64,000 nucleotides of DNA from Candidatus Eiseniibacteriota bacterium (GCA_965223205.1 OZ244990.1:2864170-2928169), one strand, 5' to 3'; shown: positions 6,276-28,696, counted from the stretch's first letter. The notes: a model not told the origin generated them from the letters alone. Made by a program: numbers and translations.

Positions 6276-7652
6276 TCAGGGTGCGCTAGCCACCTGGGTT
6301 TGAGCCTGCCCTTCGAGGCGCTCCAAACGCTCCGCCAACGCCAGACACGTCGCTTGGAGTACGGCGATCTCGGCGTTCTTTTCGGCGCGTAGCTCTTTGA
6401 GCGCTTCGATCAACACCGGGCCGAGCTTCGAGTAGTCCATCCCCACCGCATCGGCGCCGTTCTCTTCGTAGCTGACGATTTCAGGAAGGATCTCCCCGGT
6501 TTCCTCGGCGATCATGCCGAGGTCCGGCTGGCCGCCGTGCTCGGCGTCCCAATCGAAGGTAACGCCCCTGAGCGCCAAGACTTTGTCGAGCGCGTCCTCG
6601 ATCGGTGTGATGTTGTGCTTCCAGCGCCTCGACGACGCCGCGCCGTAGTTCACCCCCACTCCATCGGCGTAGAAGTCGAAGCCCGTGGAGGTACTAGCCC
6701 GCCCGCGGACGCCCACTGGCGAACCCGAATTGCTCGTTGCCCAGCCGACGACGCCGGTGCCGGTGGGGCTCGAGGTCTTGCCCGTGACGCCGGTGCCGGC
6801 GCCCGATCCTTCGTGGTGGGCGATCAGTCCAAGCCCCTGCGGCGCGTAGGACTCGGCTTGAATGCCCGTACTGTCCTCGGAACGGGCGTAAATGGCGAGG
6901 CCCCCGGCGGAATTTTCGAACCGGGCTGCACGTGGCCGATCCGACCTCACGTCGAGCTGCGAGAGCAGGTCCGGTGACATCGTGCCAATCCCGACCGACT
7001 GCTGGTTGGTGACCGTCAGCGCGACTCCCTCATTGAAGAGGTGCCAGTCCTTGGTAGAACCGTCGTAGTAGTGCCAGGCGTTGGTCTCGCCCCCGGTCGA
7101 GTAGCCGTAGAACGGCGACGCGTTTTGCCCCAGGGTACTCATGTACATGCCGGCGTAGCCCGAGGTGGTGGTGGAGTGCACGCCAAAGCGTTCCGAGCCG
7201 ATCGAGTAGTCGCGGCCGATGCCGAGGAAATCACCGTCGTCGTTGACAAAGATTCCGCGCGTTGCGGCCGAGTAGGGGGTGGGCGAGACCTGTTGGCGTG
7301 GGTCCACTGCCGTCCAAAAGCTGGTCGAGGAGCGCACCAAGATTCTAAGCCAGCGCTCCTCACCAAGCGCAAAAGCATCGGTCCCGAAATCAAGCGTCAC
7401 GGTGAATCGGCCGTCTTGTACGTGCACTCCTAACAGCTCGACGTCAGCAGCGACGGGCAAGCCGCCGGTGGCTCCAGCGTAGAGGCTGAAATGAAAGTCA
7501 TACGCCCCGTTCGCCAGGGTGCCGCTATCTTTGAGTTCACCCTGATAGGTGAAGGCTGCATCGTTCTGGCCCAAAGCAAGGCTCTCGGTGCTCACCAGCA
7601 TGATGATGGCGAGAGCTGCCCGGGAGCCGAAACATCGGTCTAGGCGTGTCAT
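6276..7652 (-). CDS. Secreted glycine-rich protein with C-terminal intramolecular-chaperone (peptidase S74 / endosialidase-chaperone-like) domain; tail-fibre-like
   Basis: Signal peptide; N-terminal TFTYQGEL..DG..YDF module; Gly-rich repeats; C-terminal SSRRWKHNITPIE...LALRGVTFDWD...GMIAEE...PEIV...DYSKL.PVLIEALKEL followed by a coiled coil. This is the layout of the self-cleaving chaperone domain of phage tail fibres and tailspikes. Confidence 0.75.
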   Translation of the reverse strand: MTRLDRCFGSRAALAIIMLVSTESLALGQNDAAFTYQGELKDSGTLANGAYDFHFSLYAGATGGLPVAADVELLGVHVQDGRFTVTLDFGTDAFALGEERWLRILVRSSTSFWTAVDPRQQVSPTPYSAATRGIFVNDDGDFLGIGRDYSIGSERFGVHSTTTSGYAGMYMSTLGQNASPFYGYSTGGETNAWHYYDGSTKDWHLFNEGVALTVTNQQSVGIGTMSPDLLSQLDVRSDRPRAARFENSAGGLAIYARSEDSTGIQAESYAPQGLGLIAHHEGSGAGTGVTGKTSSPTGTGVVGWATSNSGSPVGVRGRASTSTGFDFYADGVGVNYGAASSRRWKHNITPIEDALDKVLALRGVTFDWDAEHGGQPDLGMIAEETGEILPEIVSYEENGADAVGMDYSKLGPVLIEALKELRAEKNAEIAVLQATCLALAERLERLEGQAQTQVASAP

Positions 7653-7663
7653 AGCTGGGTCTC

Positions 7664-9046
7664 CTACTGTTCTGGCGCGTACGCCGCCAGCTTGCCCTGG
7701 AGGGCGGCGACCTGCGCGTCCCTCGCGGCCTCAAGTGCGCTCAACTGCTGAGCCATGCGTTCGTTTTGGGCGATGAGGGCCTTGACTGCCTCGACCAAGA
7801 GCGGCGTCAATCGGGAGTAATCCATGCCAATTGCGTCGACGCCGTTCTCTTCATAGGCAACGATTTCGGGCAGCACTTCGCCGGTTTCCTCGGCAATCAT
7901 GCCGATGTCGTGGTGACCGCCGTGTTCTTCGTCCCAGTCAAAGGTGACGCCGCGCAGCGCCAGAACCTTCTCGAGCGGCTCCTCGATGGGCTCGACGTTC
8001 CGCTTCCAGCGCCTGGACGAAGTCGAGCCGTAGTCGGTGCCCGCTCCACTGGCAAAAAAGTCGTAGCCCGCTGGACTGACGCAGATCCCTTTCACTCCGA
8101 CCGGCGAGCCGGTTTGAGCGCGGGCCCGACCGAGCACGCCCGTCCCGGTGGCGCTGAACGCGTCCCCAAAGACCCCATGGCTACCTCCCGCGGTCGAGGT
8201 GGAGAGCGCCACCCCCCATACTCCCTTGCCCCCGGACGCGTGGCTTTCCCCGACCACGCCAAAGCCCACGCCGGAGCTGTTGGTGGCTTCGCCGAAGATG
8301 CCCTTGCCACCGAGGGTCGCGTTGGAGACCACCATGGCGTACTCGGTTCCCGAGCTGGGCAGGTGGAATGGGTAGCTGGGGCTAGAGGTCCTGACCCCGA
8401 CGAACCCGCCGTCGGTCACCGTTAGATGGGTCCCCGAGTTGTAGAGATGCCATTTGCTGGTTGTCCCATCGAAGTAGTGATAGGCGTCGACGTCTGCGCC
8501 GGCGGCGTAGCCGTAGAAGGGCCTGGCGCCTTGGCCGGTGGTGCTCGCATACATGCCGCCGAAGCCGTTCGCAACGTCCGAGTGGATGCCGAAGCGTTCA
8601 GCGCCGGTGATCGGATCAGTTCTGCCGATCCCGACGAAGGTGTTCAAAGCGTTGACCGACAAGCCGCGCGTGGCGACCGAGTAGGGTGCGCGGGTGATCG
8701 GCTGGCGCGGGCTGAGGGTGGTGAAGCCCCCGACGCCAGCCGGATAGCGCACCCTGATTTCAAGCCAGCGGTCGCTACCCGGAAACGCCGCCGGGCCAAA
8801 GTCGACGGACACGGTGAAGCGGCCGTCTTGGACCGGGACGTTCGAGTTGGAGTCGGCGCCCAGGTTGTTGCCGCCGGCCGCCGCGTCATAGAGCACCAGC
8901 TCCACGTCACACAGCCCGTCGGCTGGCGTGCCGGTGTCGGTCAGCTCGCCCTGGTAGGTAAAGGTTGTCTCGTTGCCGTGGGCGCTCCAGGCGCCGAGGC
9001 CCAGCCACAGCACTGTCGTTAGAATTTGGCGTTTCATGGTCTGCAC
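7664..9046 (-). CDS. Paralog of 6276..7652: secreted glycine-rich protein with C-terminal intramolecular-chaperone (S74-like) domain
   Basis: Same N-terminal module (TFTYQGELTDTGTPADG), Gly-rich centre and C-terminal SSRRWKRNVEPIE...LALRGVTFDWD...GMIAEETGEVLPEIV...DYSRLTPLLVEAVKAL domain. 11-nt spacing to its tandem partner. Confidence 0.75.
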   Translation of the reverse strand: MQTMKRQILTTVLWLGLGAWSAHGNETTFTYQGELTDTGTPADGLCDVELVLYDAAAGGNNLGADSNSNVPVQDGRFTVSVDFGPAAFPGSDRWLEIRVRYPAGVGGFTTLSPRQPITRAPYSVATRGLSVNALNTFVGIGRTDPITGAERFGIHSDVANGFGGMYASTTGQGARPFYGYAAGADVDAYHYFDGTTSKWHLYNSGTHLTVTDGGFVGVRTSSPSYPFHLPSSGTEYAMVVSNATLGGKGIFGEATNSSGVGFGVVGESHASGGKGVWGVALSTSTAGGSHGVFGDAFSATGTGVLGRARAQTGSPVGVKGICVSPAGYDFFASGAGTDYGSTSSRRWKRNVEPIEEPLEKVLALRGVTFDWDEEHGGHHDIGMIAEETGEVLPEIVAYEENGVDAIGMDYSRLTPLLVEAVKALIAQNERMAQQLSALEAARDAQVAALQGKLAAYAPEQ

Positions 9047-9217
9047 CTCGCAATCCAGTTGGGTAAAGGGTGGGCCCTTCTACGACTGGAGCCGCAAACC
9101 CATCTGGAAACCCGCCAGGCATGCGGCGAAGAGCCCTAACATCCGCGATGACCGGTAGTTGGATCGGAAGGGCGAGCTAGTCGGAGCGGACGGGCGGTGC
9201 GCCGCCGGAATCCGGAC

Positions 9218-9246
9218 TTGCGGGCCGGCCCCGAACGGCGTAGACT
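9218..9246 (+). promoter_or_regulatory. Candidate sigma70-type promoter of the pyr operon (-35 TTGCGG, 17-nt spacer, -10 TAGACT)
   Basis: Hexamers by eye at 9218-9223 and 9241-9246, positioned upstream of the PyrR-binding motif and leader terminator. Confidence 0.3.
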
Positions 9247-9265
9247 GGCGGCGAACGTGCTGGAG

Positions 9266-9297
9266 CCTTTTAACCCGGTCCCGTGAGACCGGCAAGG
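9266..9297 (+). promoter_or_regulatory. PyrR-binding RNA motif (anti-antiterminator loop) in the pyr leader
   Basis: GGUCCCGUGAGACCGGCAAGG fits the conserved PyrR site pattern G-UCC-N-G-N-GAG-...-AAGG (compare B. subtilis GUCCAGAGAGGCUGAGAAGG). Lies 45 nt upstream of an intrinsic terminator and about 105 nt upstream of pyrR. Confidence 0.5.
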
Positions 9298-9340
9298 GTT
9301 CGTTTCAATGAATCGACATCACCCAGAGTTCGACGCCTGA

Positions 9341-9371
9341 CTTCACCCCGCGCGGGGAGAAGTTTTTTTTT
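9341..9371 (+). terminator. Intrinsic terminator / attenuator of the pyr leader
   Basis: CTTCaCCCC-gcgc-GGGGaGAAG hairpin followed directly by a run of 9 T (9363-9371), 30 nt upstream of the pyrR ATG. Confidence 0.6.
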
Positions 9372-9400
9372 GCCCAGACTGGGTGTGGATGGAGCTACGT

Positions 9401-16718: not shown

Positions 16719-18473
16719 GTGTCGGTTCGCCTTCCCCGACATCAAGCCCCGCTCCGACGACTGCCCAGCGCCTGGTGGGTGCTCGTCCTCATGATCTTGA
16801 TCGAGGGTTGTGGCGCCTACTACAACACCTTCTACCACGCCAAGAAGCGTTACCAGGAGGCAGAGGTGCTGCAACGCGCCCAGGGCGAGCGCAACCCGAC
16901 GCCGCAGATCCTTGGGATGTACCAGGAAGCCATCGACAAGAGTCAGAAAGTCATCGAAGACTTTCCCGATTCCAAGTGGGTGGACGACGCGCGCTACCTG
17001 ATGGGCAGGGCACAGTTGGGCCGCCAGGAATACGAGGCGGCGCTGGCGACGTTTCAGCGCTTGATTGCCAGCCATCCCGAGTCCAAGTTGATTCCAGAAG
17101 CACGCTTAGGCATCGGCATGTGCCACGTCGGGACCGGCGACTACGTGCGCGCTGACCAAGTCCTCGAGGACCTCTTGCAGTCCAATCGGAAGTTTGACCG
17201 GCGCGACGAGGTCTACTTGGAACTCGCCAAGTCGGCAGCGTTGCGGCGCGACCACCAGGCCGCCGCCGAGCGCTTCACGCGGCTGTTGGAACGTTCGCCC
17301 GAGCGCCGCGTCTCGATCGACGCCCTCCGGCACCGGGGCGATGCGTACCGCGCGCTGGGTGACCACCAGGCGGCGCTGGCGGACTTCTTGGCCGTCGAAG
17401 AGGCTATTTCCGAACCCGAACTGCGCTACGAGGTCGGTCTCGATATCGGTCAGGCACTCGAAGAGTTGGGGCGCTTCGACGAAGCGTTGGCCCGCTATCA
17501 GGCGCTGGAGCGTGAGATGGCCACCGCGCGTCACCTGCCCCGCACCTTGCTCTCGACCGCACGGGTCACCAATCGGTTGGGCGACCACGCGCGCGCCGTC
17601 GAACTCTACGAGTCGATCGTCGAAAAGTACCCCGGCGGCGCCGACGCCGCTCAGGCGCAATTCCAGCTGGGTAACACCTACGAGGTGTACCTGCACGACA
17701 ATGCCAAAGCCATCGAGGCCTACAGCCAGGTGCGCGCGGTGAACGCCAGCTCCGACTTTGTCGACCTGGCGGAGAGTCGCCAGGCCGACCTGGAGCGCCT
17801 TGGGGCGTTGGCTGAAGAGGTGACTTCGGGGAGTGGTGACGCCCAGGCCGAAGCGGCCTATCAGCTGGCCGAGGTCAAGCTCTTCCGCCTCAATAAACCC
17901 GCCGAAGCCATCGAGGATTTTGCTTCGCTGGAGTCAGACTTCCCGCTGAGCCGTTTCGCCCCCAAGGCGGCCTACGCCATCGGCTACACCCACGAGTCCG
18001 AGTTGGGCGACTCGGTGGCCGCCCACGCTGCCTACCAGCGGGTCTACGAGCGCTATCCCCAGACCGAGTACGGACTCCGCGCGGGTGTCTGGGTGGGTGC
18101 CCTAGACCGCGACTCGTTGAACATCTGGCTCGGCGCCATCGAAATGGAGCGGACCCGGCGGGACTCGTTGGCGCGTGCCCGCGCCTTCGCCGATAGCTTG
18201 ACGCGGGCCGACTCGCTCTGGGCGGCGGGGGGCGATACGACGGCGACCGAGGCGGCACCGGCCGATTCGCTGCGCGCTGCTGGAGCTGATACCGTGGTGG
18301 CCGCGGCCGATTCGCTTGCGGCCCATGCACTGGAGCGGAGTCCCATGGACCCAGAAGAGCGCAGCCGCCGCCTCGTGGCCCACGAACGCATGCGCGACTC
18401 CTTGATGGCCATCGCCCGCGCCCGTCGCGAGTCCCTGGACACGCGGCAGCGCCGGTTGATCGACGAGCGATGA
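16719..18473 (+). CDS. Tetratricopeptide-repeat protein, probable lipoprotein (BamD-like TPR fold) with ADSL-repeat C-terminal region
   Basis: Signal-like N-terminus ending ...LVLMILIEGC; multiple TPR-like helical hairpins; low-complexity C-terminus with four ADSL repeats. Lies inside the pyr operon: 3 nt after the carB stop, and its stop overlaps the pyrK ATG. Confidence 0.75.
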   Translation: MSVRLPRHQAPLRRLPSAWWVLVLMILIEGCGAYYNTFYHAKKRYQEAEVLQRAQGERNPTPQILGMYQEAIDKSQKVIEDFPDSKWVDDARYLMGRAQLGRQEYEAALATFQRLIASHPESKLIPEARLGIGMCHVGTGDYVRADQVLEDLLQSNRKFDRRDEVYLELAKSAALRRDHQAAAERFTRLLERSPERRVSIDALRHRGDAYRALGDHQAALADFLAVEEAISEPELRYEVGLDIGQALEELGRFDEALARYQALEREMATARHLPRTLLSTARVTNRLGDHARAVELYESIVEKYPGGADAAQAQFQLGNTYEVYLHDNAKAIEAYSQVRAVNASSDFVDLAESRQADLERLGALAEEVTSGSGDAQAEAAYQLAEVKLFRLNKPAEAIEDFASLESDFPLSRFAPKAAYAIGYTHESELGDSVAAHAAYQRVYERYPQTEYGLRAGVWVGALDRDSLNIWLGAIEMERTRRDSLARARAFADSLTRADSLWAAGGDTTATEAAPADSLRAAGADTVVAAADSLAAHALERSPMDPEERSRRLVAHERMRDSLMAIARARRESLDTRQRRLIDER

Positions 18474-20971: not shown

Positions 20972-21055
20972 GACCCTCTTTCCGTGCGCAGGCGAGCCGC
21001 AACAGGCGCGTCGGACCAGGACAGGTCCGGCTGCGACCGATCGAAAGGACGAGTG

Positions 21056-22402
21056 ATGTACCGGATTTCAGTCATTGGTACGGGCTACGTGGGCCTGGTG
21101 ACCGGGGCCAGCCTCGCCGACTTCGGCAACGACGTTATCTGCGTCGACAAGATCCCCGAAAAGATCCAGAGCCTCAAGCGACTGGAGATCCCGTTTTACG
21201 AGCCGGGGCTGCGCGAGCTGGTGGCGCGGAACGTCGAAGAAGGACGGCTGCATTTCTCGACCGACCTAGCCGCTGCAGTTGCTGAGACGCCGGTCATCTT
21301 CACGGCAGTCGGCACGCCCATGGGTGATGACGGCCGGGCTGATTTGACCGCGGTCTTCGAAGTGGCGCGCGAAGTGGCGCGGGCCATGCAAGGCTACCGG
21401 CTGATCGTCCAAAAGAGTACCGTGCCGGTCGGCACCGGCCGCAAGATCAAGGAGCTCGTCACCGAGAACTTGACCGGTGACCACCCGTTCGACGTCGCTT
21501 CCAACCCCGAGTTCCTGCGGGAAGGCTCCGCGGTGCAGGATTTCACCCATCCCAATCGGGTGGTGATAGGGACGTGGACGGAGCGCGCCGAAAAGCTCAT
21601 CTCCGATATCTACAAGCCCCTCTACTTGCTCGAAGCGCCGATGGTGAAGACGACGGTCGAAACCGCTGAGCTGATCAAGTACGCCGCCAACGCCTTTTTG
21701 GCGACCAAGATCTCGTTCATCAATGAGATTGCCAACCTCTGCGAGGCGCTGGGTGCCGACGTGCGCGAGGTGGCGCACGCCATGGGGTTGGACAATCGCA
21801 TTGGCAACAAGTTCCTACATGCTGGCCCCGGCTACGGCGGTTCGTGTTTTCCGAAGGACACCCGGGCGCTGGCTCACTTTGCCAGCGAGGTGGGCGAGAC
21901 CATGCGCATTGTCGATGCCGTGATCGAGGTCAACGAGCGTCAGATCGAGCGCATGGTTGCCAAGGTGGCCAAGACCTTGGGTGACTTGGACGGCAAGACG
22001 ATTGGCGTCTTGGGGTTGTCGTTCAAACCCAAGACCGACGACATCCGCGACGCGCCGTCGCTGCGCATCATTCGCGGCTTGGTCGAGCAGGGCGCCCAGG
22101 TGCGTGCCTACGATCCGGTGGCCATTCCGCGCGCCGCCGACGAGCTTCCGGACATCGAATACTGCGCCGGCGCCTACGAAACCTGCGACGGGGCGGATGG
22201 AGTCATTGTCGTCACCGAGTGGAATGAATTCAGGCGCCTGGACCTGGAGCGGATCAAGAGCTTGCTCAAGACCCCGGTTTTCTTCGACTTGAAGAACATC
22301 TACTCGCCCACCGAGGTGGCGGCCAAGGGCTTGCGCTACGTCGGCGTTGGGCGCCGGTTCAACGAGAACAACGCCAATCCGGCTTTGGCTTCGACTCGCT
22401 AG
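21056..22402 (+). CDS. ugd: UDP-glucose 6-dehydrogenase
   Basis: N-terminal Rossmann VIGTGYVGLV, catalytic GGSCFPKD motif, and C-terminal UDP-binding domain. ATG at 21056 is preceded by AAAGGA. Confidence 0.9.
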   Translation: MYRISVIGTGYVGLVTGASLADFGNDVICVDKIPEKIQSLKRLEIPFYEPGLRELVARNVEEGRLHFSTDLAAAVAETPVIFTAVGTPMGDDGRADLTAVFEVAREVARAMQGYRLIVQKSTVPVGTGRKIKELVTENLTGDHPFDVASNPEFLREGSAVQDFTHPNRVVIGTWTERAEKLISDIYKPLYLLEAPMVKTTVETAELIKYAANAFLATKISFINEIANLCEALGADVREVAHAMGLDNRIGNKFLHAGPGYGGSCFPKDTRALAHFASEVGETMRIVDAVIEVNERQIERMVAKVAKTLGDLDGKTIGVLGLSFKPKTDDIRDAPSLRIIRGLVEQGAQVRAYDPVAIPRAADELPDIEYCAGAYETCDGADGVIVVTEWNEFRRLDLERIKSLLKTPVFFDLKNIYSPTEVAAKGLRYVGVGRRFNENNANPALASTR

Positions 22403-22411
22403 GAGGGAACC

Positions 22412-23431
22412 TTGGGCGCATTCCTCGACGATGCCAAGCTGCTGGTGACCGGCGGCGCCGGCTTCATCGGTTCAAACTTTGTTCGCCACATCCTTGGCCA
22501 CCATGGCCGGGCGCGCGTCGTGGTTCTGGATGCTCTGACCTACGCCGGCAACATGGATAACCTGGCGGGCTTGGATGCTGAACGCCTGGAGTTTGTGCAC
22601 GGCAACATCTGCGATTTCGACGCGGTTCGCGCCGCCATGCGCGGCTGTAGCGCCGTGGTCAACTTCGCGGCCGAAACCCACGTTGACCGCTCGATTCAGG
22701 ACCCTGGCGGCTTCGTGCAGACCGACGTCTACGGCAGCTTCGTGCTCTTGGAGGTGGCCAAGGAATGTGGCGTCCAGCGGTTCGTGCAAATATCGACCGA
22801 CGAGGTCTACGGCGAGATTCTGGGCGACCCAGTCAAAGAGGATGCGCCCTTGATGCCCCGGAACCCTTACTCGGCGAGCAAGTCGGGGGCCGATCGACTG
22901 GCCTACTCGTACTTTACAACCTACGACTTACCCGTCACGATTACGCGCTGCAGCAACAACTACGGGCCCTACCAGCACGTCGAGAAGCTGTGGCCCTTGT
23001 TTGTGACCAACGCGCTCGAGGACAAACCGCTGCCGGTGTATGGCACCGGGCGCAATCTGCGCGACTGGATCTATGTCGAGGACCACTGTGAAGCCCTGCG
23101 GATGATCCTGAACGCCGATGGCGTGGCTGGCGAGGTGTTCAACATCGGCGCTTCCAACGAGCACTCCAGCCTCGAGATCGGTAAGCTCATCCTGGCGACG
23201 CTGGGCAAGCCGGAGACCCTAATCCAGCACGTGGACGATCGCCCGGGTCACGACCGGCGCTACGCTCTGGATTCCAGCAAGATCACCGCTCAGCTGGGCT
23301 GGATGCCCAACGTTGACTTCAGAGCCGGGGCGGAGCGCACGATCCGCTGGTACTCGGACAACCGCGCGTGGTGGGAGAAGTTGAAGGGTGGGGAATTCAA
23401 GGAGTACTACGAAAAGGCGTACCGCCTGTAG
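22412..23431 (+). CDS. rfbB: dTDP-glucose 4,6-dehydratase
   Basis: TGGAGFIGSNF, HVDRSI, ISTDEVYG, PYSASKSGAD (YxxxK) and RCSNNYGPYQH motifs. TTG start preceded by AGGAGGG. Confidence 0.9.
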   Translation: MGAFLDDAKLLVTGGAGFIGSNFVRHILGHHGRARVVVLDALTYAGNMDNLAGLDAERLEFVHGNICDFDAVRAAMRGCSAVVNFAAETHVDRSIQDPGGFVQTDVYGSFVLLEVAKECGVQRFVQISTDEVYGEILGDPVKEDAPLMPRNPYSASKSGADRLAYSYFTTYDLPVTITRCSNNYGPYQHVEKLWPLFVTNALEDKPLPVYGTGRNLRDWIYVEDHCEALRMILNADGVAGEVFNIGASNEHSSLEIGKLILATLGKPETLIQHVDDRPGHDRRYALDSSKITAQLGWMPNVDFRAGAERTIRWYSDNRAWWEKLKGGEFKEYYEKAYRL

Positions 23432-25001
23432 CGCCTGCAGCGGATTGGCCGCCATGGTGATCGCCGGGGTTTGGAGCCTCGGCGTTTTGCCCGCCGGCCT
23501 GGCTTCACCGGGGGATTGGCGAGGGGACGGCAGAGCCCTGGAGTTACCCCGTGACGTCCGCGAGGCACGCACCTCGGACGCCAGCCCGGACGCCGAAGCC
23601 AATACCTTGGGTCAGCCGGTGGATCCCGCCACCTACCAGGTGGGACCCGGCGACCTCTTGCGCCTGGCGGTAGGCGGCGGCGACCTCGAACCCTACAACC
23701 TGTGGGTGGACGCCGAAGGCGGCTTGGCGTTGCCCGACGGCAGCCGCGTGGATTTGGCCGGGTTGACCTTGACCGAGGCCCGGGCGGCCGTTGCCAAGGC
23801 CTTGGCGCGCGAGTACCGCCGCGTGCAGTTCGACTTGGGCTTAGTCCGCCCCCGCCGCTTCAAGGTCCACGTCGGTGGCGCAGTCGCCCGCCCGGGCAGC
23901 TACCTGGCCAGCCCTTTGACGTTGACCAGCGAGGTGTTGGAGCGGGCCGGCGGCGTACTCGAGGACGGCTCTCAGCGGCGCGTGCGGTTGGTCGGTACGG
24001 ACGGCAGTGAGCGCTACGCTGACTTGGTGGGATTCGCCTTTCTCGCCGACCGGGAGCGCAACCCCGCAGTGCGCGCCGACGACCTCATCCAGGTGCCGGT
24101 CGCCGTCGACTTCGTGGCGGTCTGGGGAGGGGTGGCGCGCCCGGGGCGCTATGAACTTCGAGACGGCGAAACCATCGGCGACCTTGTTGCCTTGGCTGGT
24201 GGGTTGCTGCCCGAGGCCGACGCCACCCGAATCGAGTGGCGGCACGCCGAAGCAGGACGCTTCGGCGCCCCCGGCGTGGTCGCGTTGAGTGCCACCGATT
24301 CCCAGACCTTGGCAGTTGGCGATGCGCTGGTAGTTCCAACGTTCTACGACCGCGGGCGGCTAGCAGCTACCGTCGAAGTCGAAGGCGAGGTGCCAAGTCC
24401 TGGGGTCTATCCGATCCAGCCGGGGGTCGACCGCGCCCGCCAGTTGCTCGAGTGGGCGGGGGGCTTCACCGAGGCAGCGAACGTTCGGGGGGTTCGACTC
24501 CTGCGGGCGCCCGAGGAACTTCAGGCGGTGGACGCCGAAGACGAGGCGTTGCCGATCGCTGGCGAGGCTGCCCGTTTGGCCCGCCGCCGCGGCCGCCAAC
24601 CCGTGGAGGTGGAATGGTCAGAATCCGGTGGTGCCAATCCAACCTTGGCCGATGGCGACTTGCTGGTCGTCCCGCGCCTGAGTGGCAGGGTTTGGGTGGG
24701 CGGCCGGGTCAAACAACCGGGCTGGGTGGCCTACCAACCGGGGCTGGCGGTGAAGGCGGCCATCCAAGCCGCCGGCGGCTTCGATCGGGGCGCCCACCGC
24801 GGTGGCCTGTTGTTGAGTCCGGTCGGGACCACGGGACACCTGGTGAGCGCTGATTCGGAGCGCCTGTTGATCGACGGGGATCGGCTCTGGGTGCCCGAGA
24901 AGGCACCGATTGGCGGGTGGCAAGTGTTTCGGGACGTCGTCTCCGTCGCTGCGCAGCTGGCGACCATCGCCATTATCGTCGACCAGGTGCGCCGTAACTG
25001 A
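23388..25001 (+). CDS. Polysaccharide biosynthesis/export protein (Wza-like, SLBB-type beta-grasp domains)
   Basis: Signal peptide; repeated 'PG.Y.L..G.T..D....AGG' soluble-ligand-binding beta-grasp modules of outer-membrane polysaccharide export proteins. GTG start at 23388 overlaps rfbB; an in-frame ATG at 23454 is an alternative. Confidence 0.7.
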   Translation: MGNSRSTTKRRTACSACSGLAAMVIAGVWSLGVLPAGLASPGDWRGDGRALELPRDVREARTSDASPDAEANTLGQPVDPATYQVGPGDLLRLAVGGGDLEPYNLWVDAEGGLALPDGSRVDLAGLTLTEARAAVAKALAREYRRVQFDLGLVRPRRFKVHVGGAVARPGSYLASPLTLTSEVLERAGGVLEDGSQRRVRLVGTDGSERYADLVGFAFLADRERNPAVRADDLIQVPVAVDFVAVWGGVARPGRYELRDGETIGDLVALAGGLLPEADATRIEWRHAEAGRFGAPGVVALSATDSQTLAVGDALVVPTFYDRGRLAATVEVEGEVPSPGVYPIQPGVDRARQLLEWAGGFTEAANVRGVRLLRAPEELQAVDAEDEALPIAGEAARLARRRGRQPVEVEWSESGGANPTLADGDLLVVPRLSGRVWVGGRVKQPGWVAYQPGLAVKAAIQAAGGFDRGAHRGGLLLSPVGTTGHLVSADSERLLIDGDRLWVPEKAPIGGWQVFRDVVSVAAQLATIAIIVDQVRRN

Positions 25002-25239
25002 CAGCCGTGCTGGGGGATTTCACCCGGTGCGGCACCGGCGAACCCGCGGCTGGGGGCTGGCCTTGGCTGAGATCCGGGATCTGCCGATGACCCCGAGAGC
25101 ATTCAGGGAGATGAACGACCGGCCGCGCTGTACGACAGAAGGTCGTCGGCGCCCCAGCCGGCCCCGCGCCGTTCGGCCAAGTTGTCGTACCGGGCGCACT
25201 TACGGGACTGCTTCGGGCGTGGAGTGGGGCACACAAGGC

Positions 25240-25268
25240 TTGACACTGTATCGGCCTTACCGTATCGT
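25240..25268 (+). promoter_or_regulatory. Candidate promoter (-35 TTGACA, 17-nt spacer, -10 TATCGT) in the 390-bp gap upstream of the epimerase gene
   Basis: Perfect -35 hexamer and a weak -10 in an otherwise GC-rich intergenic region that becomes AT-richer toward the gene. Confidence 0.25.
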
Positions 25269-25391
25269 ACTCGCCATTCGCCCGGTTTTAAGCTGCAAGT
25301 TGTTGTTATTCTTAGAGTTGGCTGATGCACAGCGAGGGAATCGGGTTGTGGAGTGCCGGTGTGATCAGAGGCAGCTCGGGGAGGATCGAGC

Positions 25392-26426
25392 TTGATGCGT
25401 GACTTGGTGACGGGAGGCGCGGGGTTCATCGGCTCCCACCTCGTCGAGGCTTTGCTCAACAAGGGTGACGAGGTCCTGGTCATTGACGACCTATCCACCG
25501 GCAGCCTCAGGAATCTGCGGCATCTGTCTGGGCACCCGCGGCTGATCTTTCTGGAAGATTCAGTCCTCAACCGGCCGGTGGTCGAACGCCTGGTATCCCA
25601 GGTGGACCGCGTCTTTCATCTGGCGGCGGCGGTTGGCGTGCAGTATGTCGTCGAAAATCCGCTCGAGGCACTGCGGACCAACATCCACGGCGCTGAGTAT
25701 GTCCTCGAGGCAGCCAAGCGCGACCAGAAGCCGGTCGTTATGTTCTCGACCTCCGAGGTCTATGGCAAGTCAGACGACGTGCCGTTTCGGGAAGATTCCG
25801 ACCGCGTCATGGGCTCGACCGCCATCTCCCGTTGGGGTTACGCCAGCTCGAAGGCGGTCGACGAATTCCTGGCGCTGGCCTATCATCGGGCTCACGAGTT
25901 ACCGGTTGTCATTGTGCGGTGCTTCAACACGTGTGGGCCGCGCCAATCGGGGCGCTATGGAATGGTCGTACCACGCTTCGTGCAGAACGCCATCCAAAAC
26001 CGTCCCATCCAGGTCTACGGCACTGGCGACCAAACCCGGTGCTTCTCGTTCGTCGGTGATGTGGTGCGCGGCGTCGTCTTGTTGGCCGACACTGATGCTG
26101 CCTACGGTGAAGTTTTCAACATCGGCACGGACGAAGAAGTGTCGATTCGAACGCTGGCAGAACGGGTGAAAGCACGGGTGGGTTCGTCCTCACCGATCGT
26201 CTCGATGCCCTACGAAGAGGTCTACGGGACGAGCTTCGAAGACATGCAGCGGCGCGTGCCGGACCTCAACAAGATTCGCCGGTTCGTCGGCTACCAACCC
26301 GAGGTCAGGCTGGACGAACTCCTCGAGATGACCATCGAATCGGTGCGGGCGGAACTCGCCGAAGGCGAGAGCACGCCACCCACCGATCGCCTGCTGTCGA
26401 GCGCCGTGCCGCCGGCTAGCTCCTAG
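25392..26426 (+). CDS. NAD-dependent epimerase/dehydratase (UDP-glucuronate decarboxylase / ArnA-C-terminal-like short-chain dehydrogenase)
   Basis: VTGGAGFIGSHLV Rossmann motif, STSEVYG, YASSKAVDE (YxxxK) and RCFNTCGPRQ motifs. Co-located with ugd. Confidence 0.85.
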   Translation: MMRDLVTGGAGFIGSHLVEALLNKGDEVLVIDDLSTGSLRNLRHLSGHPRLIFLEDSVLNRPVVERLVSQVDRVFHLAAAVGVQYVVENPLEALRTNIHGAEYVLEAAKRDQKPVVMFSTSEVYGKSDDVPFREDSDRVMGSTAISRWGYASSKAVDEFLALAYHRAHELPVVIVRCFNTCGPRQSGRYGMVVPRFVQNAIQNRPIQVYGTGDQTRCFSFVGDVVRGVVLLADTDAAYGEVFNIGTDEEVSIRTLAERVKARVGSSSPIVSMPYEEVYGTSFEDMQRRVPDLNKIRRFVGYQPEVRLDELLEMTIESVRAELAEGESTPPTDRLLSSAVPPASS

Positions 26427-26435
26427 TTCTCCTGC

Positions 26436-27407
26436 ATGCACAGTGGTGTCGTGGCGTTTGCCATTGCCTTGGCAACCGTCGCCGTTGCCACGCCTGGCGT
26501 TCGCCGCCTTGCCATCCGCCTGAACCTGGTGGACCAACCCTCCGCCCGCCGCTTCCACCAAGCCGCCGTGCCGCTGGCTGGCGGCGTGGCCATCCTCCTG
26601 GGATGGTGGTTGGGGGCGGGTTGGGTCCACCGGCAAATAGCCGTCCCCGAGTTTCAACCCTTCTGGATAGGTAGTCTTGGGGCACTGCTTCTCGGGTTGG
26701 TCGACGACGCGCGCGGCTTGCCGCCGCTGGTCAAGCTGGCTGGACAGGTGGCGCTGGCGGTGTTTCTGGTCGGTGCCGTCGGCCCCAATGGCTTGGGCTG
26801 GGCCGTCGTCGCCGGCGTTTGGGTGGTGGGGCTCATGAACGCATGCAACTTCCTGGACAACATGGACGGCATCTTGGCTGGTAGCTCGTGCCTGTCGGCT
26901 CTGGCCTTTTGGGTAGTTCTGGCGCCAGCGCCGGTCGCCGCACTGGCGGCAGCGACGACCGGCGCGTGTTTGGGCTTTTTGTTCTTCAACTTCGCACCGG
27001 CGCGCGTGTTCATGGGTGATGCCGGTTCACTGGCACTGGGTTACCTGCTGGGTGGGCTGTCGCTGTTGATAGCTACCCGGGCACCGGCGGGGCCGGCATG
27101 GGTGGCGGTCGCCCTGGCGCTTTGCTACCCATTGTTCGACCTGATCTTTGTCACCTGGACCCGGATCCGCGACGGTCGCAAGTTCTACCTGGGGGGGCGC
27201 GACCACACCTCCCACCGGCTGAACTCCCTGGTTGCGAGCCCGCACCGCACGGCGCTGGGGGTCTACGCCCTCGCCGCGGCGGGAGCGATGGCGGCGGTCG
27301 TGGTCGACGGGTCGTCGTCGCCGACTGTGGCAATTGTCTTGGCTGTCGCCGCGACACTGATGCTGGCGTGGGTGGGCGTCAGGTTGGCGCGCGTGCCCAT
27401 CCGTTAG
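26436..27407 (+). CDS. Undecaprenyl-phosphate sugar-1-phosphate transferase (MraY/WecA family, GT4 polyprenyl-phosphate transferase)
   Basis: About 10 TM segments and the NACNFLDNMDGILAG signature (NxxNxxDGxDGL) of the MraY/WecA family. Confidence 0.8.
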   Translation: MHSGVVAFAIALATVAVATPGVRRLAIRLNLVDQPSARRFHQAAVPLAGGVAILLGWWLGAGWVHRQIAVPEFQPFWIGSLGALLLGLVDDARGLPPLVKLAGQVALAVFLVGAVGPNGLGWAVVAGVWVVGLMNACNFLDNMDGILAGSSCLSALAFWVVLAPAPVAALAAATTGACLGFLFFNFAPARVFMGDAGSLALGYLLGGLSLLIATRAPAGPAWVAVALALCYPLFDLIFVTWTRIRDGRKFYLGGRDHTSHRLNSLVASPHRTALGVYALAAAGAMAAVVVDGSSSPTVAIVLAVAATLMLAWVGVRLARVPIR

Positions 27408-27508
27408 GCCGCTTGTGTTGAGCGCTCGGCGCTCCACGTGGTAGGATTCCACCTCACTCTACACTGCCAATCCCGCCTCCTTGACAACGCCCAGCCCCGC
27501 GGACAGGT

Positions 27509-28696
27509 ATGTCCCTACGACCTGAGCCTATCCCGAGCCGCGCTCATGTGGTCGCCCCAGATGTGAAGGCGGCCGAGCCGGTGTTTGCCGACTACTGCTA
27601 TGGCGTTGCTCGGCGCGCGCGGCGGATTCTGGCGATGGCGGCGCTCGCCGGCGTGGCAGCGGCCGTCTTTGCGTTGTTGCACCCCAGTTGGTATGCCGCG
27701 CGTTGCACCTTCCTGCCATCCCGGGGCGAAAGCCGTGGGCCGAACGTCACCATGTTGTTGAATCGGGTGCTGGGTGGCGGTGCCGGCCTGACTGACGCCG
27801 TCCAAGCGGGTGACCTCACCGTCGTCATCATGCGCAGCGAGTATGTGCGCCAGCAACTAGTCGAAGAGTTCGACCTGGTCGAGCGCTACGAGGCCAAAAC
27901 GGCGCGCGGCGCCGCAGCCCAGCTCCTCGACCGCATGCGCTTCTTCGTCGGCCAAGAGGGCCTGGTGACGGTCTGGGTCGAAGACCGTGATCCAGAACTA
28001 GCTGCCCAGTTGGCCAACCGCACGGTCGCACTGTTGGATCGTTTCAACGCCGAGCGGCGCATGACCGATGGGCGGCGTACGCGGTTGTTTGTGGAGCGCG
28101 AGCTGGCCAAGGTGTCGGCCAACCTGGCGGCAGCCGAAGACTCGTTGCAGACCTATGTGGCGGCGGCCAAGAGCGTGCCGATGGCCTTCGACTCTGAGGC
28201 GATGGCGGCGCAGAGCCTGCTCATCAGCCGCAGGATGGAGCTGGAGATTCAACTCGACATGGAGCGCGAGGTGAAGTCCGATCGCGCCGAGTCGGTGCGC
28301 CTCCTGCAGTCCGAGCTCGACAAGATCAACGAGGCGCTCGGTGAATTGCCAGAAGTGAGTCTCGAGTACGCCAGGCTGCTGCGCGAGGTCAGCGTTCAAG
28401 AGAATCTCTACGAACTTTTGCGGGCCAACTACGAAGAGGCCAAGGTCCGCGAAGCCGAGGACACCCAGTCGATTAGTGTGGTCGACCAGGCCCAGCCGCC
28501 TACCGTGCGCTCCCGACCGCGCCGTAAGCTAATGGTGGCATCGGCTGCCGGAGCCGCCGGGTTTCTCGCTTTGCTGTGGGCGTTGATTGCCACCTACTTC
28601 GAGCTGCTGCCGCCGGGGAGTCGCCACCAGCGCCTGTTCGCCGCCACAGGTCACGAGTTGCGTCGCCTGCTGCGTTGGCCGAGGCGGGCCGACTGA
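27509..28696 (+). CDS. Polysaccharide co-polymerase (Wzz/GumC-like chain-length determinant)
   Basis: Two TM helices (MAALAGVAAAVFALL and AAGAAGFLALLWALIATYF) flanking a long coiled-coil periplasmic region. Stop overlaps the serS ATG. Confidence 0.65.
   Translation: MSLRPEPIPSRAHVVAPDVKAAEPVFADYCYGVARRARRILAMAALAGVAAAVFALLHPSWYAARCTFLPSRGESRGPNVTMLLNRVLGGGAGLTDAVQAGDLTVVIMRSEYVRQQLVEEFDLVERYEAKTARGAAAQLLDRMRFFVGQEGLVTVWVEDRDPELAAQLANRTVALLDRFNAERRMTDGRRTRLFVERELAKVSANLAAAEDSLQTYVAAAKSVPMAFDSEAMAAQSLLISRRMELEIQLDMEREVKSDRAESVRLLQSELDKINEALGELPEVSLEYARLLREVSVQENLYELLRANYEEAKVREAEDTQSISVVDQAQPPTVRSRPRRKLMVASAAGAAGFLALLWALIATYFELLPPGSRHQRLFAATGHELRRLLRWPRRAD

What the first reader, a model, noticed from the sequence alone, without database searches (positions are those of the whole stretch)
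6276..9046. Tandem pair of secreted, glycine-rich proteins with phage tail-fibre-type self-cleaving chaperone C-termini, outside any prophage
Two adjacent - strand paralogs (458 and 460 aa) share a signal peptide, an N-terminal TFTYQGEL..DG..YDF module, a Gly-rich repetitive centre, and a C-terminal domain with the layout of the peptidase S74 intramolecular chaperone of phage tail fibres and endosialidases (SSRRWK...LALRGVTFDWD...GMIAEE...DYSKL...EALKEL plus coiled coil). No integrase, capsid, terminase or other phage genes are nearby; the neighbours are housekeeping and envelope genes. This suggests a host-encoded trimeric surface fibre or adhesin pair that borrowed a phage folding module. 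The paralogs are diverged, so this is not a recent duplication.
Basis: partly seen in the sequence, partly recalled or inferred. Interest (0 to 1): 0.75.

Follow-up and report, generated by a model that had tools for sequence, protein, structure and literature searches.

The report
Cell-encoded phage-like surface fibre pair
Two neighbouring genes of a planctomycete-type bacterium encode exported fibre proteins that join a bacterial N-terminal domain to a phage tail-fibre shaft and its self-cleaving folding domain; this kind of protein was first described in the predator Bdellovibrio in 2024, so the pair is a genuine but not unprecedented find.

Summary
Two adjacent minus-strand genes (7664-9046, 460 aa; 6276-7652, 458 aa) are 47% identical and 11 nt apart, so they are probably one operon. 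Each encodes a signal peptide, a ~105-aa beta-sandwich N-domain, a beta-helix module, Gly-rich GVxG repeats, a Peptidase_S74 domain (53-54 bits, cut-off 22) with an invariant Ser-x4-Lys dyad, and a coiled coil.

The flanks hold the pyrimidine operon and envelope genes, with no phage genes.

The protein is chimeric:
- The N-domain has no match in 50,697 phage genomes or in a pattern scan of 2.9 M viral contigs. It occurs in about 25,000 cluster representatives, nearly always right after a signal peptide and with varied C-termini.
- The shaft plus S74 part matches 678 phage records.

Relatives are common in Phycisphaerae and other Planctomycetota, often as tandem arrays of 2-5 genes.

The layout and the best solved-structure matches (Bd3182, Bd2133) are those of the Bdellovibrio 'mosaic adhesive trimer' (MAT) fibres (Caulton 2024), whose list already includes a planctomycete. 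This is a new, uncharacterised member.

Trimerisation, self-cleavage, surface display and ligand remain inferred.

The parts
7664..9046 (-). geneB: 460-aa fibre precursor (first gene of the pair)
   Evidence: ORF; identical to public protein P0001 from Met4; Pfam S74
8975..9046 (-). geneB signal peptide, aa 1-24 (MQTMKRQILTTVLWLGLGAWSAHG)
   Evidence: Two basic residues, then a hydrophobic stretch (mean Kyte-Doolittle 2.1), then A-H-G before the conserved domain. Inferred from sequence; no predictor was run
8663..8974 (-). geneB N-domain, aa 25-128 (FTYQG...PRQP..APY..TRG), a beta-sandwich
   Evidence: AF2 pLDDT above 90, seven strands; translation; 25,011 cluster representatives; no Pfam model; absent from phage collections
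8342..8662 (-). geneB beta-helix module, aa 129-235, bounded by two 'capping loop' motifs (VGIGRTDPITGAERF at 138; VGVRTSSPSYPFHL at 216)
   Evidence: Motifs. The family profile aligns this region to the Bd3182 tip beta-helix (8ojn, E 4.5e-4); Bd2133 (8ond, E 9.5e-8) aligns further downstream, over profile positions 179-291. Foldseek best PDB hits are the Bd3182/Bd2133 fibres
8021..8341 (-). geneB Gly-rich G-V-x-G repeats, aa 236-342 (six units, period 12-16 aa); predicted mature C-terminal tip
   Evidence: 23% Gly; low-confidence in the monomer model; matched in viral S74 proteins
7772..8020 (-). geneB S74 / intramolecular chaperone auto-processing domain, aa 343-425
8003..8020 (-). geneB catalytic motif S343-S-R-R-W-K348; predicted cleavage between T342 and S343
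   Evidence: Translation; S343, S344, R346 and K348 invariant in 46 homologs; corresponds to SDxxxK of Bd3182 (PMC10769870)
7667..7771 (-). geneB C-terminal coiled coil, aa 426-460
   Evidence: Single long helix 410-456, pLDDT 84-96
6276..7652 (-). geneA: 458-aa paralogous fibre precursor (second gene). Its ATG lies 11 nt after the geneB stop, whose TAG overlaps a GGAG
   Evidence: identical-length public protein P0008
7569..7652 (-). geneA signal peptide, aa 1-28 (…AALAIIMLVSTESLALG)
   Evidence: h-region mean Kyte-Doolittle 2.7, three basic residues before it
7254..7568 (-). geneA N-domain, aa 29-133
   Evidence: Translation; local N-domain HMM E 1.4e-35
6948..7253 (-). geneA beta-helix module, aa 134-235 (capping loop VGIGTMSPDLLSQL at 220)
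6636..6947 (-). geneA Gly-rich repeats, aa 236-339
   Evidence: 17% Gly; five units with spacings of 12-14 aa
6387..6635 (-). geneA S74 domain, aa 340-422, with S340...K345 (codons 6618-6635)
   Evidence: Pfam 54.1 bits; translation
6279..6386 (-). geneA C-terminal coiled coil, aa 423-458
   Evidence: Alignment to geneB; weak SlyX-type coiled-coil hit
9047..9262 (.). Intergenic stretch left for the divergent promoters of geneB and of the pyr operon (no promoter identified)
   Evidence: No sigma-70 consensus found; the pyr leader occupies 9263-9372

Best explanation
The two genes form one operon. They encode two paralogous precursors of short, cell-made fibres of the 'mosaic adhesive trimer' type.

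Proposed sequence of events:
1. Each precursor is exported through the Sec pathway, using the signal peptide.
2. The three C-terminal S74 domains and their coiled coil come together and template the folding of the Gly-rich repeats and the beta-helix module into an intertwined trimer.
3. The Ser-Lys dyad (S343/K348 in geneB, S340/K345 in geneA) then cuts the chain just before the serine.
4. This releases a ~13 kDa chaperone fragment and leaves a ~32 kDa-per-chain mature fibre.
5. The conserved N-terminal beta-sandwich holds the fibre on the cell envelope, and the freshly exposed C-terminal end points outward as a binding tip, probably for a glycan.

Shown here: the domain content, the conserved dyad, the fold of the N-domain and of the S74 domain, the non-phage genomic setting, and the absence of the N-domain from phages.

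Inferred from characterised relatives (Bd3182, endosialidase, T5 pb1, MyRF): trimerisation, self-cleavage, surface anchoring and ligand binding.
For: - Domain content: Pfam S74 is well above cut-off in both proteins, starting at profile position 1 on the first Ser.
- Dyad: S343, S344, R346 and K348 are invariant in 46 homologs. The dyad aligns with that of S16 gp37 and MyRF.
- Bdellovibrio link: the best PDB matches by Foldseek are the fibres Bd3182 and Bd2133 (E 6e-5 to 2e-3). The family profile hits their beta-helix regions by sequence (9.5e-8 and 4.5e-4), and the capping-loop motif is present.
- Trimer: relatives insert collagen Gly-X-Y repeats between the same N-domain and the same shaft (P0032; PF01391), which argues for a trimer.
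- Export: 43 of 46 homologs have signal-peptide-like N-termini.
- N-domain: it was confidently modelled as a beta-sandwich (pLDDT above 90). It is found in 25,011 cluster representatives, almost always at aa ~25-130. In 90 sampled proteins it carries mosaic C-termini: S74 in 10, collagen with BclA_C, Peptidase_G2 IMC, FG-GAP, Kelch, pectate lyase-like, UspA1 repeats and CBM5/12.
- Phage contrast: the N-domain has no hit in 50,697 phage genomes, no hit in a pattern scan of the viral contig collection and none in 13 viral S74 loci. Residues 131-460 hit 678 phage records.
- Setting: the flanks are the pyr operon and envelope genes. Tandem arrays of 2-5 paralogs, some without S74, recur in related genomes.
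- Precedent: Bd3182 self-cleaves at its Ser, S782A blocks cleavage, and MAT fibres are surface-displayed (PMC10769870).
Against: - No oligomer could be modelled.
- Homology of the N-domain to the Bdellovibrio MAT N-domain could not be tested. The only bridge, to the N-domain of Bacteroidota S74 proteins, is weak (hhalign E 1.4e-3, probability 18%).
- No route across the outer membrane and no envelope receptor for the N-domain is known, so the fibres could be periplasmic or released.
- Neighbours conserved next to relatives (a dockerin-type small protein, an ECF sigma factor and a Ser/Thr kinase) are missing from this window.
- MAT fibres were tied to predatory lifestyles. No predation is known or suggested for this organism.
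Confidence: 0.72

Rival explanations
1. The genes are leftovers of a prophage or the fibre genes of a phage tail-like particle (tailocin) encoded elsewhere. The proteins would be assembled onto a tail in the cytoplasm.
For: The shaft and S74 part is the same module as in hundreds of phage tail fibres. The pair is the only minus-strand unit in about 60 kb, and GC dips to 0.615 over it, as expected for acquired DNA.
Against: Both proteins and 43 of 46 relatives start with export signals, which cytoplasmically assembled virion fibres lack. The N-terminal domain, where a tail attachment domain would sit, is absent from phage genomes and viral contigs. The immediate flanks are a glycosyltransferase and pyrR, with no integrase, tRNA or flanking direct repeats. 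Nothing phage-like lies within 29 kb.
Confidence: 0.05
2. They are exported trimeric beta-helix proteins that are not cell-anchored adhesins. They could instead be released into the medium or kept in the enlarged periplasm, as a matrix or envelope structural component or a soluble lectin.
Against: The strict position of the N-domain directly after the signal peptide in thousands of proteins with unrelated C-termini fits a common presentation or anchoring role. The Bdellovibrio proteins of the same layout are surface-displayed (PMC10769870).
Confidence: 0.18
3. They are secreted polysaccharide depolymerases of the endosialidase or tailspike type, with the S74 domain folding a catalytic trimer.
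For: S74 was first described on endosialidases. PHROGs lists a hyaluronidase family among the C-terminal matches. A relative of the N-domain family carries a pectate lyase-like domain.
Against: No catalytic domain was found at E<=1 in Pfam or NCBIfam. The mature chain has only about 315 residues, of which about 105 are the N-domain. All phage-family matches cover only the C-terminal 100-220 residues.
Confidence: 0.05

Closest known systems
Bdellovibrio bacteriovorus MAT (mosaic adhesive trimer) fibres, S74 subgroup, e.g. Bd3182 (Caulton et al. 2024, PMC10769870; PDB 8ojn, 8onb, 8onc, 8ond)
   Same: The order of parts is the same: signal peptide, conserved beta-rich N-domain, trimeric beta-helix shaft with V-G-x-x-x-x-P-x-x-x-L capping loops, then an S74 domain with a Ser-x4-Lys motif. 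Both are chromosomal, occur as multiple paralogs, and have family members that swap S74 for other tips. These fibres are the best PDB matches by fold and by profile. The paper's own list of MATs outside Bdellovibrio includes a PVC-group planctomycete, an Omnitrophica bacterium, Saprospiraceae and Patiriisocius, taxa that also appear among my related loci.
   Different: These proteins are much shorter (458-460 aa against about 600-1,950 aa) and lack a long stalk. A Gly-rich GVxG repeat block lies between the capped beta-helix and S74. The motif is SSRRWK rather than SDxxxK. N-domain homology is untested. The organism is of Phycisphaerae type with no known predatory lifestyle.
Phage tail fibres and tailspikes with the intramolecular chaperone auto-processing domain (K1F endosialidase, T5 pb1, S16/T4-like gp37, GA-1 neck appendage)
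   Same: The C-terminal S74 domain, the Ser-Lys dyad, and a preceding Gly-rich beta-helical shaft.
   Different: Phage proteins have no signal peptide and carry virion-attachment N-termini. The N-domain found here is absent from phage collections, and the genes are not in a phage genome.
Myelin regulatory factor (MyRF) ICA domain of eukaryotes (PDB 7dc3)
   Different: MyRF is a membrane-bound transcription factor that uses the cleavage to release its DNA-binding part. It is not an extracellular fibre.
Trimeric autotransporter adhesins (YadA, UspA1)
   Same: The functional analogy: a trimeric, repeat-built surface fibre with a binding head. One N-domain relative carries UspA1 repeats.
   Different: No C-terminal beta-barrel translocator is present. 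Here the C-terminus is a cleaved chaperone and the cell-proximal end is presumed to be the N-terminus, the opposite polarity.
Collagen-like exosporium fibres such as BclA
   Same: Some family members combine the same N-domain with collagen repeats and a BclA_C (TNF/C1q-like) tip, which again gives trimeric surface filaments.
   Different: The two window proteins have neither collagen repeats nor a BclA_C tip.

Membership tests
Peptidase S74 / intramolecular chaperone auto-processing (ICA) domain, Pfam PF13884 | Sequence match to the family model above the curated threshold | tested here: met
   54.1 and 53.3 bits against a gathering score of 22, profile positions 1-57 of 58
Peptidase S74 / intramolecular chaperone auto-processing (ICA) domain, Pfam PF13884 | Catalytic serine with lysine five residues downstream (SDxxxK type) | tested here: met
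   S343/K348 and S340/K345 in SSRRWK; invariant in 46 homologs; aligned to the motif of S16 gp37 and MyRF
Peptidase S74 / intramolecular chaperone auto-processing (ICA) domain, Pfam PF13884 | ICA fold followed by a C-terminal helix | tested here: met
Peptidase S74 / intramolecular chaperone auto-processing (ICA) domain, Pfam PF13884 | Homotrimerisation and templating of a triple beta-helix upstream | not testable with these tools
   Only monomer prediction is offered.
Peptidase S74 / intramolecular chaperone auto-processing (ICA) domain, Pfam PF13884 | Autoproteolytic release of the domain | not testable with these tools
   This needs expression and an S343A/K348A comparison
MAT (mosaic adhesive trimer) fibres, Caulton et al. 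2024 | N-terminal signal peptide | tested here: met
   Basic n-region, hydrophobic h-region and small residues at -3/-1 in both proteins; 43 of 46 homologs. Rule-based; no dedicated predictor was available
MAT (mosaic adhesive trimer) fibres, Caulton et al. 2024 | [quoted passage not shown] | tested here: inconclusive
   A ~105-aa all-beta domain is present at that position and conserved in about 25,000 cluster representatives. Bdellovibrio MAT sequences could not be retrieved and afdb50 was unavailable. The link to the N-domain of Bacteroidota S74 proteins is weak (hhalign E 1.4e-3, probability 18%, colinear over 102 columns)
MAT (mosaic adhesive trimer) fibres, Caulton et al. 2024 | Beta-helical shaft with capping-loop motif V-G-G/N-pi-x-x-P-x-x-x-L | tested here: met
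   Motifs at geneB 138 and 216 and geneA 220; the profile aligns to Bd2133 (9.5e-8) and Bd3182 (4.5e-4) shafts; these are the top Foldseek PDB hits
MAT (mosaic adhesive trimer) fibres, Caulton et al. 2024 | Constant N-terminal end with exchangeable C-terminal tips across paralogs | tested here: met
   Paralogs with the N-domain and shaft but no S74 sit in the same arrays. Only 10 of 90 N-domain proteins carry S74; others carry collagen/BclA_C, Peptidase_G2, FG-GAP, Kelch, CBM5/12 and more
MAT (mosaic adhesive trimer) fibres, Caulton et al. 2024 | Display on the cell surface and a role in cell-cell recognition | not testable with these tools
   Experimental only
Virion tail fibre of a (pro)phage | Encoded among phage structural, integration or lysis genes | tested here: not met
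   The flanks are a GT4 glycosyltransferase and pyrR-pyrB-pyrC-carAB; no phage family lies within 29 kb; no tRNA
Virion tail fibre of a (pro)phage | N-terminal domain shared with phage fibres for attachment to the tail | tested here: not met
   The N-domain gives 0 tblastn hits in 50,697 phage records, no confirmed hit in the viral contig scan, and none in 13 viral S74 loci
Trimeric autotransporter adhesin | C-terminal YadA-type beta-barrel anchor | tested here: not met
   No such Pfam match at E<=1; the C-terminus is S74 plus a coiled coil
Endosialidase / tailspike depolymerase | Catalytic glycosidase or lyase domain upstream of S74 | tested here: not met
   No catalytic family in Pfam or NCBIfam; PHROGs matches are confined to the C-terminal part

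The most novel reading that the evidence does not exclude
The ~105-aa FTYQG...PRQP..PY N-domain, which has no Pfam model, defines a very large superfamily (at least 25,000 clusters at 50% identity) of exported, cell-anchored mosaic fibres. These would be the general, non-predatory counterpart of the Bdellovibrio MAT fibres. In Planctomycetota, arrays of them would form regulated surface-recognition loci: many relatives sit next to a planctomycete-type ECF sigma factor with a Ser/Thr kinase, and are translationally coupled to a small dockerin-type secreted protein that could be the missing anchor or partner. The window pair would then be a minimal, stand-alone example of a widespread but unstudied way of decorating the bacterial surface with phage-derived receptor-binding modules.
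Probability: 0.3. Interest if true: 0.6.

Novelty: new member of a known kind. Interest (0 to 1): 0.42.

Why it matters
The result would extend the recently described class of cell-encoded, phage-derived S74 fibres from a specialised predator to Phycisphaerae-type planctomycetes and, through the shared N-domain, to tens of thousands of environmental proteins. For Planctomycetota, whose surface appendages and attachment to algae and polysaccharide particles are poorly understood at the molecular level, these genes are concrete candidates for adhesins. The pair is small (about 32 kDa mature chains), which makes it a convenient model for testing S74-assisted folding and for finding what the N-domain binds. 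This does not change current concepts, because the principle was established in 2024.

Tried and rejected
- Source organism and third paralog. Exact look-ups of P0001 and P0002 found no contig and cluster look-ups gave no names. The window's genome is not among the species representatives scanned (best hit 43%). The organism is therefore only inferred to be of Phycisphaerae/Planctomycetota type, from its closest relatives.
- Direct test of N-domain homology to Bdellovibrio MATs. A search with a Bd3182 fragment rebuilt from the PDB alignment found nothing. The AlphaFold-database fold library was not available. The supplement of the MAT paper gives accessions but no sequences.
- Trimer model.
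- Viral scan with the broad N-domain alignment failed for lack of a conserved stretch. It was repeated with a tighter alignment.
- Sigma-70 promoter and terminator scans gave nothing above chance. No transcription signals are claimed.
- Synteny. Neighbourhoods of relatives share almost nothing with the window. One locus has pyrB next to a fibre gene, which I treat as coincidence.
- Crateriform-structure fibres. I considered that these proteins are the dextran-binding fibres of planctomycete crateriform structures (Boedeker 2017, PMC5394234). I rejected this as unlikely. Those fibres can exceed the cell in length, whereas the mature chains here have about 315 residues. That work also concerns Planctomycetia, not Phycisphaerae.
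- Literature searches for S74 or 'tail fiber domain-containing protein' in Planctomycetes or Phycisphaerae found nothing relevant.
Full report
**1. What is in the sequence**

The region holds two minus-strand ORFs, 7664-9046 (geneB, 460 aa) and 6276-7652 (geneA, 458 aa). By third-position GC they are the only credible minus-strand genes between the start of the window and about 61.5 kb. GC content falls to 0.615 over them, against 0.65-0.70 around them.

The geneB stop codon (TAG) overlaps a GGAG, and the geneA ATG follows 11 nt later. The two genes are therefore most likely co-transcribed and translated in series. GeneA ends 22 nt from the convergent stop of a glycosyltransferase gene.

The proteins are 47% identical over their full length. 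Identity is uneven: 75% in the S74 domain, 52% in the N-domain, 48% in the following beta-helix module and 38% in the Gly-rich repeats. At DNA level only the S74 part is still recognisable as a 256-nt repeat at 76% identity. The duplication is old.

A third paralog (P0002, 438 aa, 52-56% identical) lies on the same 4.58-Mb public contig.

**2. Domain anatomy**

- Both proteins pass Pfam Peptidase_S74 with 53-54 bits against a cut-off of 22. The match starts at profile position 1, on the first serine of SSRRWK.
- Nothing else in Pfam or NCBIfam matches. In particular nothing matches the first 330 residues.
- PHROGs families (tail fibre, baseplate wedge, long tail fibre distal subunit) match mainly the last ~100 residues, and at most from about residue 140 (phrog_1980).
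- In an alignment of 46 full-length homologs, S343, S344, R346 and K348 (geneB numbering) are invariant. Ser343 and Lys348 have the i/i+5 spacing of the SDxxxK dyad that Caulton et al. describe for Bd3182, where S782A abolishes cleavage (PMC10769870).
- The family profile aligns this motif with that of phage S16 gp37 and of MyRF.

An AlphaFold2 monomer model gives the following picture:
- aa 28-117: a seven-stranded beta-sandwich, pLDDT above 90.
- aa 188-218: a few strands.
- aa 233-349: no confident structure, as expected for a segment that folds only as an intertwined trimer.
- aa 357-456: an alpha/beta domain followed by one long helix, pLDDT 74-96.

The centre has two parts.
- Residues ~129-235 are bounded in geneB by two loops of the form VG-x-x-T/R-x-x-P-x-x-x-x-F/L. 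This is the 'capping loop' motif that Caulton et al. derived from Bd3182. The family profile aligns this stretch to the Bd3182 tip beta-helix (E 4.5e-4). It also matches the Bd2133 shaft further along (profile positions 179-291, E 9.5e-8). Foldseek ranks these Bdellovibrio fibres as the best PDB matches.
- Residues ~236-342 carry five (geneA) or six (geneB) G-[VIL]-x-[GA] units spaced 12-16 residues apart, with 17-23% glycine.

Predicted processing leaves mature chains of 32.3 kDa (geneB aa 25-342) and 32.6 kDa (geneA aa 29-339), and releases 13-kDa fragments.

**3. Export signal**

Both proteins begin with basic residues, a hydrophobic stretch, and small residues at -3/-1. 43 of 46 homologs have such a prefix, of median length 28 residues, before the FTYQG motif. 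There is no lipobox cysteine and no known C-terminal sorting signal. This is a rule-based reading, because no dedicated signal-peptide predictor was available.

**4. Not a prophage**

On one side lie DAHP synthase, an HlyD-type adaptor, two MacB/FtsX permeases, YdjM and a GT4 glycosyltransferase. On the other side lie pyrR, pyrB, pyrC, carA, carB, a TPR protein, a pyrK-like protein and pyrF. A polysaccharide synthesis and export cluster follows (UDP-glucose dehydrogenase, epimerases, Wza-like exporter, WecA-like transferase, chain-length determinant).

There is no tRNA in the window. No flanking direct repeats suggest an integration site.

**5. A chimera of a cellular and a phage part**

The N-domain (108 aa) has no tblastn match in 50,697 phage genomes at E<=0.01. 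Residues 131-460 match 678 of them, annotated as tail fibres.

In 2.9 million viral contigs, 13 loci encode S74 relatives. All match only residues 221 onward. None contains the N-domain by HMM search, and a dedicated pattern scan for the N-domain found none.

Conversely, a full scan of 1.84 billion cluster representatives with the N-domain finds 25,011 at E<=1e-3 and 16,876 at E<=1e-10. In nearly all of the 150 listed, the domain sits at about residues 25-130. A few proteins have two or three copies.

Of 90 such proteins scanned against Pfam, only 10 carry S74. Others carry collagen with BclA_C, the Peptidase_G2 chaperone, FG-GAP, Kelch, pectate lyase-like, UspA1 repeats, CBM5/12 or dockerin domains, and most have no known domain. 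The N-domain is therefore a constant, export-linked module joined to many different distal parts.

**6. Relatives and their neighbourhoods**

The full-length family is large. 706 proteins scored E<=0.001 among the capped set of 8,000 candidates. Public names are 'tail fiber domain-containing protein', 'chaperone of endosialidase' or 'hypothetical'.

A scan of species-representative genomes returned 79 loci. Most are from Phycisphaerae, Phycisphaerales, Pirellulales, Isosphaeraceae and other Planctomycetota MAGs. A few are proteobacterial MAGs. Bacteroidota, Omnitrophota and Marinimicrobia share only the repeats and S74.

Tandem arrays of two to five paralogs are frequent (L001, L015, L025, L032, L066, L069). 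They include members that keep the N-domain and shaft but lack S74. One relative (P0032) inserts collagen Gly-X-Y repeats between the same N-domain and the same shaft, which is independent support for a trimer.

Three neighbours recur in relatives:
- A ~140-aa secreted protein with dockerin-type calcium-binding repeats, which often overlaps the stop of the last fibre gene (25 loci).
- A planctomycete-type ECF sigma factor (PF07638, 9 loci).
- A Ser/Thr kinase with TPR or WD40 repeats (13 loci).

None of the three is present anywhere in this window.

**7. Comparison with what is known**

Caulton et al. 2024 described 21 MAT fibres in B. bacteriovorus. Each has a signal peptide, a conserved ~130-aa beta-rich N-domain and a trimeric shaft. 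Thirteen end in S74 and eight in other tips. The authors showed surface display, S74 self-cleavage (Bd3182) and glycan binding (Bd2439).

Their Supplementary Table S3 lists MATs in other organisms, including Ca. Uabimicrobium amorphum (PVC group), an Omnitrophica bacterium, Saprospiraceae and Patiriisocius marinistellae. These taxa also appear among my loci.

In the P. marinistellae locus (L068), four tandem genes share a Bacteroidota-type N-domain that sits directly after the signal peptide. A profile-profile comparison of that domain with the planctomycete N-domain is colinear over 102 columns but weak (E 1.4e-3, probability 18%).

I could not obtain a Bdellovibrio N-domain sequence for a direct test. 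The window proteins therefore work like S74-type MATs and meet all the MAT features I could test. Homology of the N-domain, the family's constant part, remains open.

No paper in the searchable library deals with S74 proteins of Planctomycetes.

**8. Mechanism and confidence**

I take the proteins to be Sec-exported precursors. They would trimerise through the S74 domain and coiled coil, fold the shaft from the C-terminal end, cut themselves before Ser343/Ser340, and remain attached to the envelope through the N-domain, with the new C-terminus as the distal tip. The region next to the cleavage site is the most diverged between the paralogs (38%), as expected for a specificity-determining end.

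The domain content, dyad, folds, export signals, non-phage setting and chimeric origin are shown here. Trimerisation, cleavage, anchoring and ligand are inferred.

Overall confidence is 0.72 that this is a cell-made, exported, S74-processed trimeric fibre. Confidence is lower, about 0.5, that it is a surface adhesin for a glycan.

**9. Verdict**

The kind is already described and these genes are already labelled 'tail fiber domain-containing protein' in public annotation. It is a new, uncharacterised member, and possibly the short end of a very large family whose N-domain has no curated model. That merits moderate interest.

Noticed in passing
window 9263-9372 (+), just upstream of pyrR (9383): A full-length match to the Rfam PyrR binding site (RF00515): 48.3 bits, below the gathering score of 54, E 8.3e-6 in a 361-nt search. 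It ends in a GC-rich hairpin plus a T9 run at 9340-9372. It is probably the attenuator of the pyr operon, and it was missed at the curated threshold.
   Followed up: partly
related loci, e.g. L006 11353-11790, L009 11695-12114, L013 11656-12120, L049 11710-12132: A ~140-aa secreted protein with a GGG..F.L.GTIGQ...GGFW motif and dockerin/EF-hand-type repeats lies immediately downstream of the last fibre gene in 25 of 79 loci, often overlapping its stop codon. It is not present in the window. It could be a partner or anchor of the fibres.
   Followed up: partly
related loci, e.g. L009 12185-15549, L006 3184-6168, L002 1471-5524: Pairs of a planctomycete-type ECF sigma factor (PF07638) and a Ser/Thr kinase with TPR or WD40 repeats sit next to fibre gene arrays in 9-13 loci. 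This hints that the arrays belong to the regulon of these sigma/kinase pairs. They are absent from the window.
   Followed up: partly
proteins P0244-P0248 (from the N-domain search): A few proteins carry two or three tandem copies of the N-domain, and not directly after the signal peptide, unlike nearly all other members listed.
   Followed up: no
L068 8786-14911 (Patiriisocius marinistellae): Four tandem genes (693, 271, 731 and 278 aa) share a Bacteroidota-type N-domain (NYQAVVRD...SVPYAL) right after the signal peptide. Only the first ends in S74. This is a Bacteroidota counterpart of the planctomycete arrays.
   Followed up: partly
window 1-61500: Apart from the two fibre genes, every credible gene in about 60 kb is on the plus strand, and GC dips to 0.615 at 7001-8000. 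This is consistent with the pair being an inserted unit between the glycosyltransferase gene and pyrR, although no insertion scars were found.
   Followed up: partly
window 16719-18473 (+): A 584-aa TPR/YfiO-like protein gene is embedded in the pyrimidine operon, between carB and the pyrK-like gene.
   Followed up: no
window 20984-28696 (+): A polysaccharide synthesis and export cluster: UDP-glucose dehydrogenase, two epimerase/dehydratases, a Wza-like Poly_export/SLBB protein, a WecA-like transferase and a GNVR chain-length protein. It lies 12 kb from the fibre genes, and no link to them was tested.
   Followed up: no
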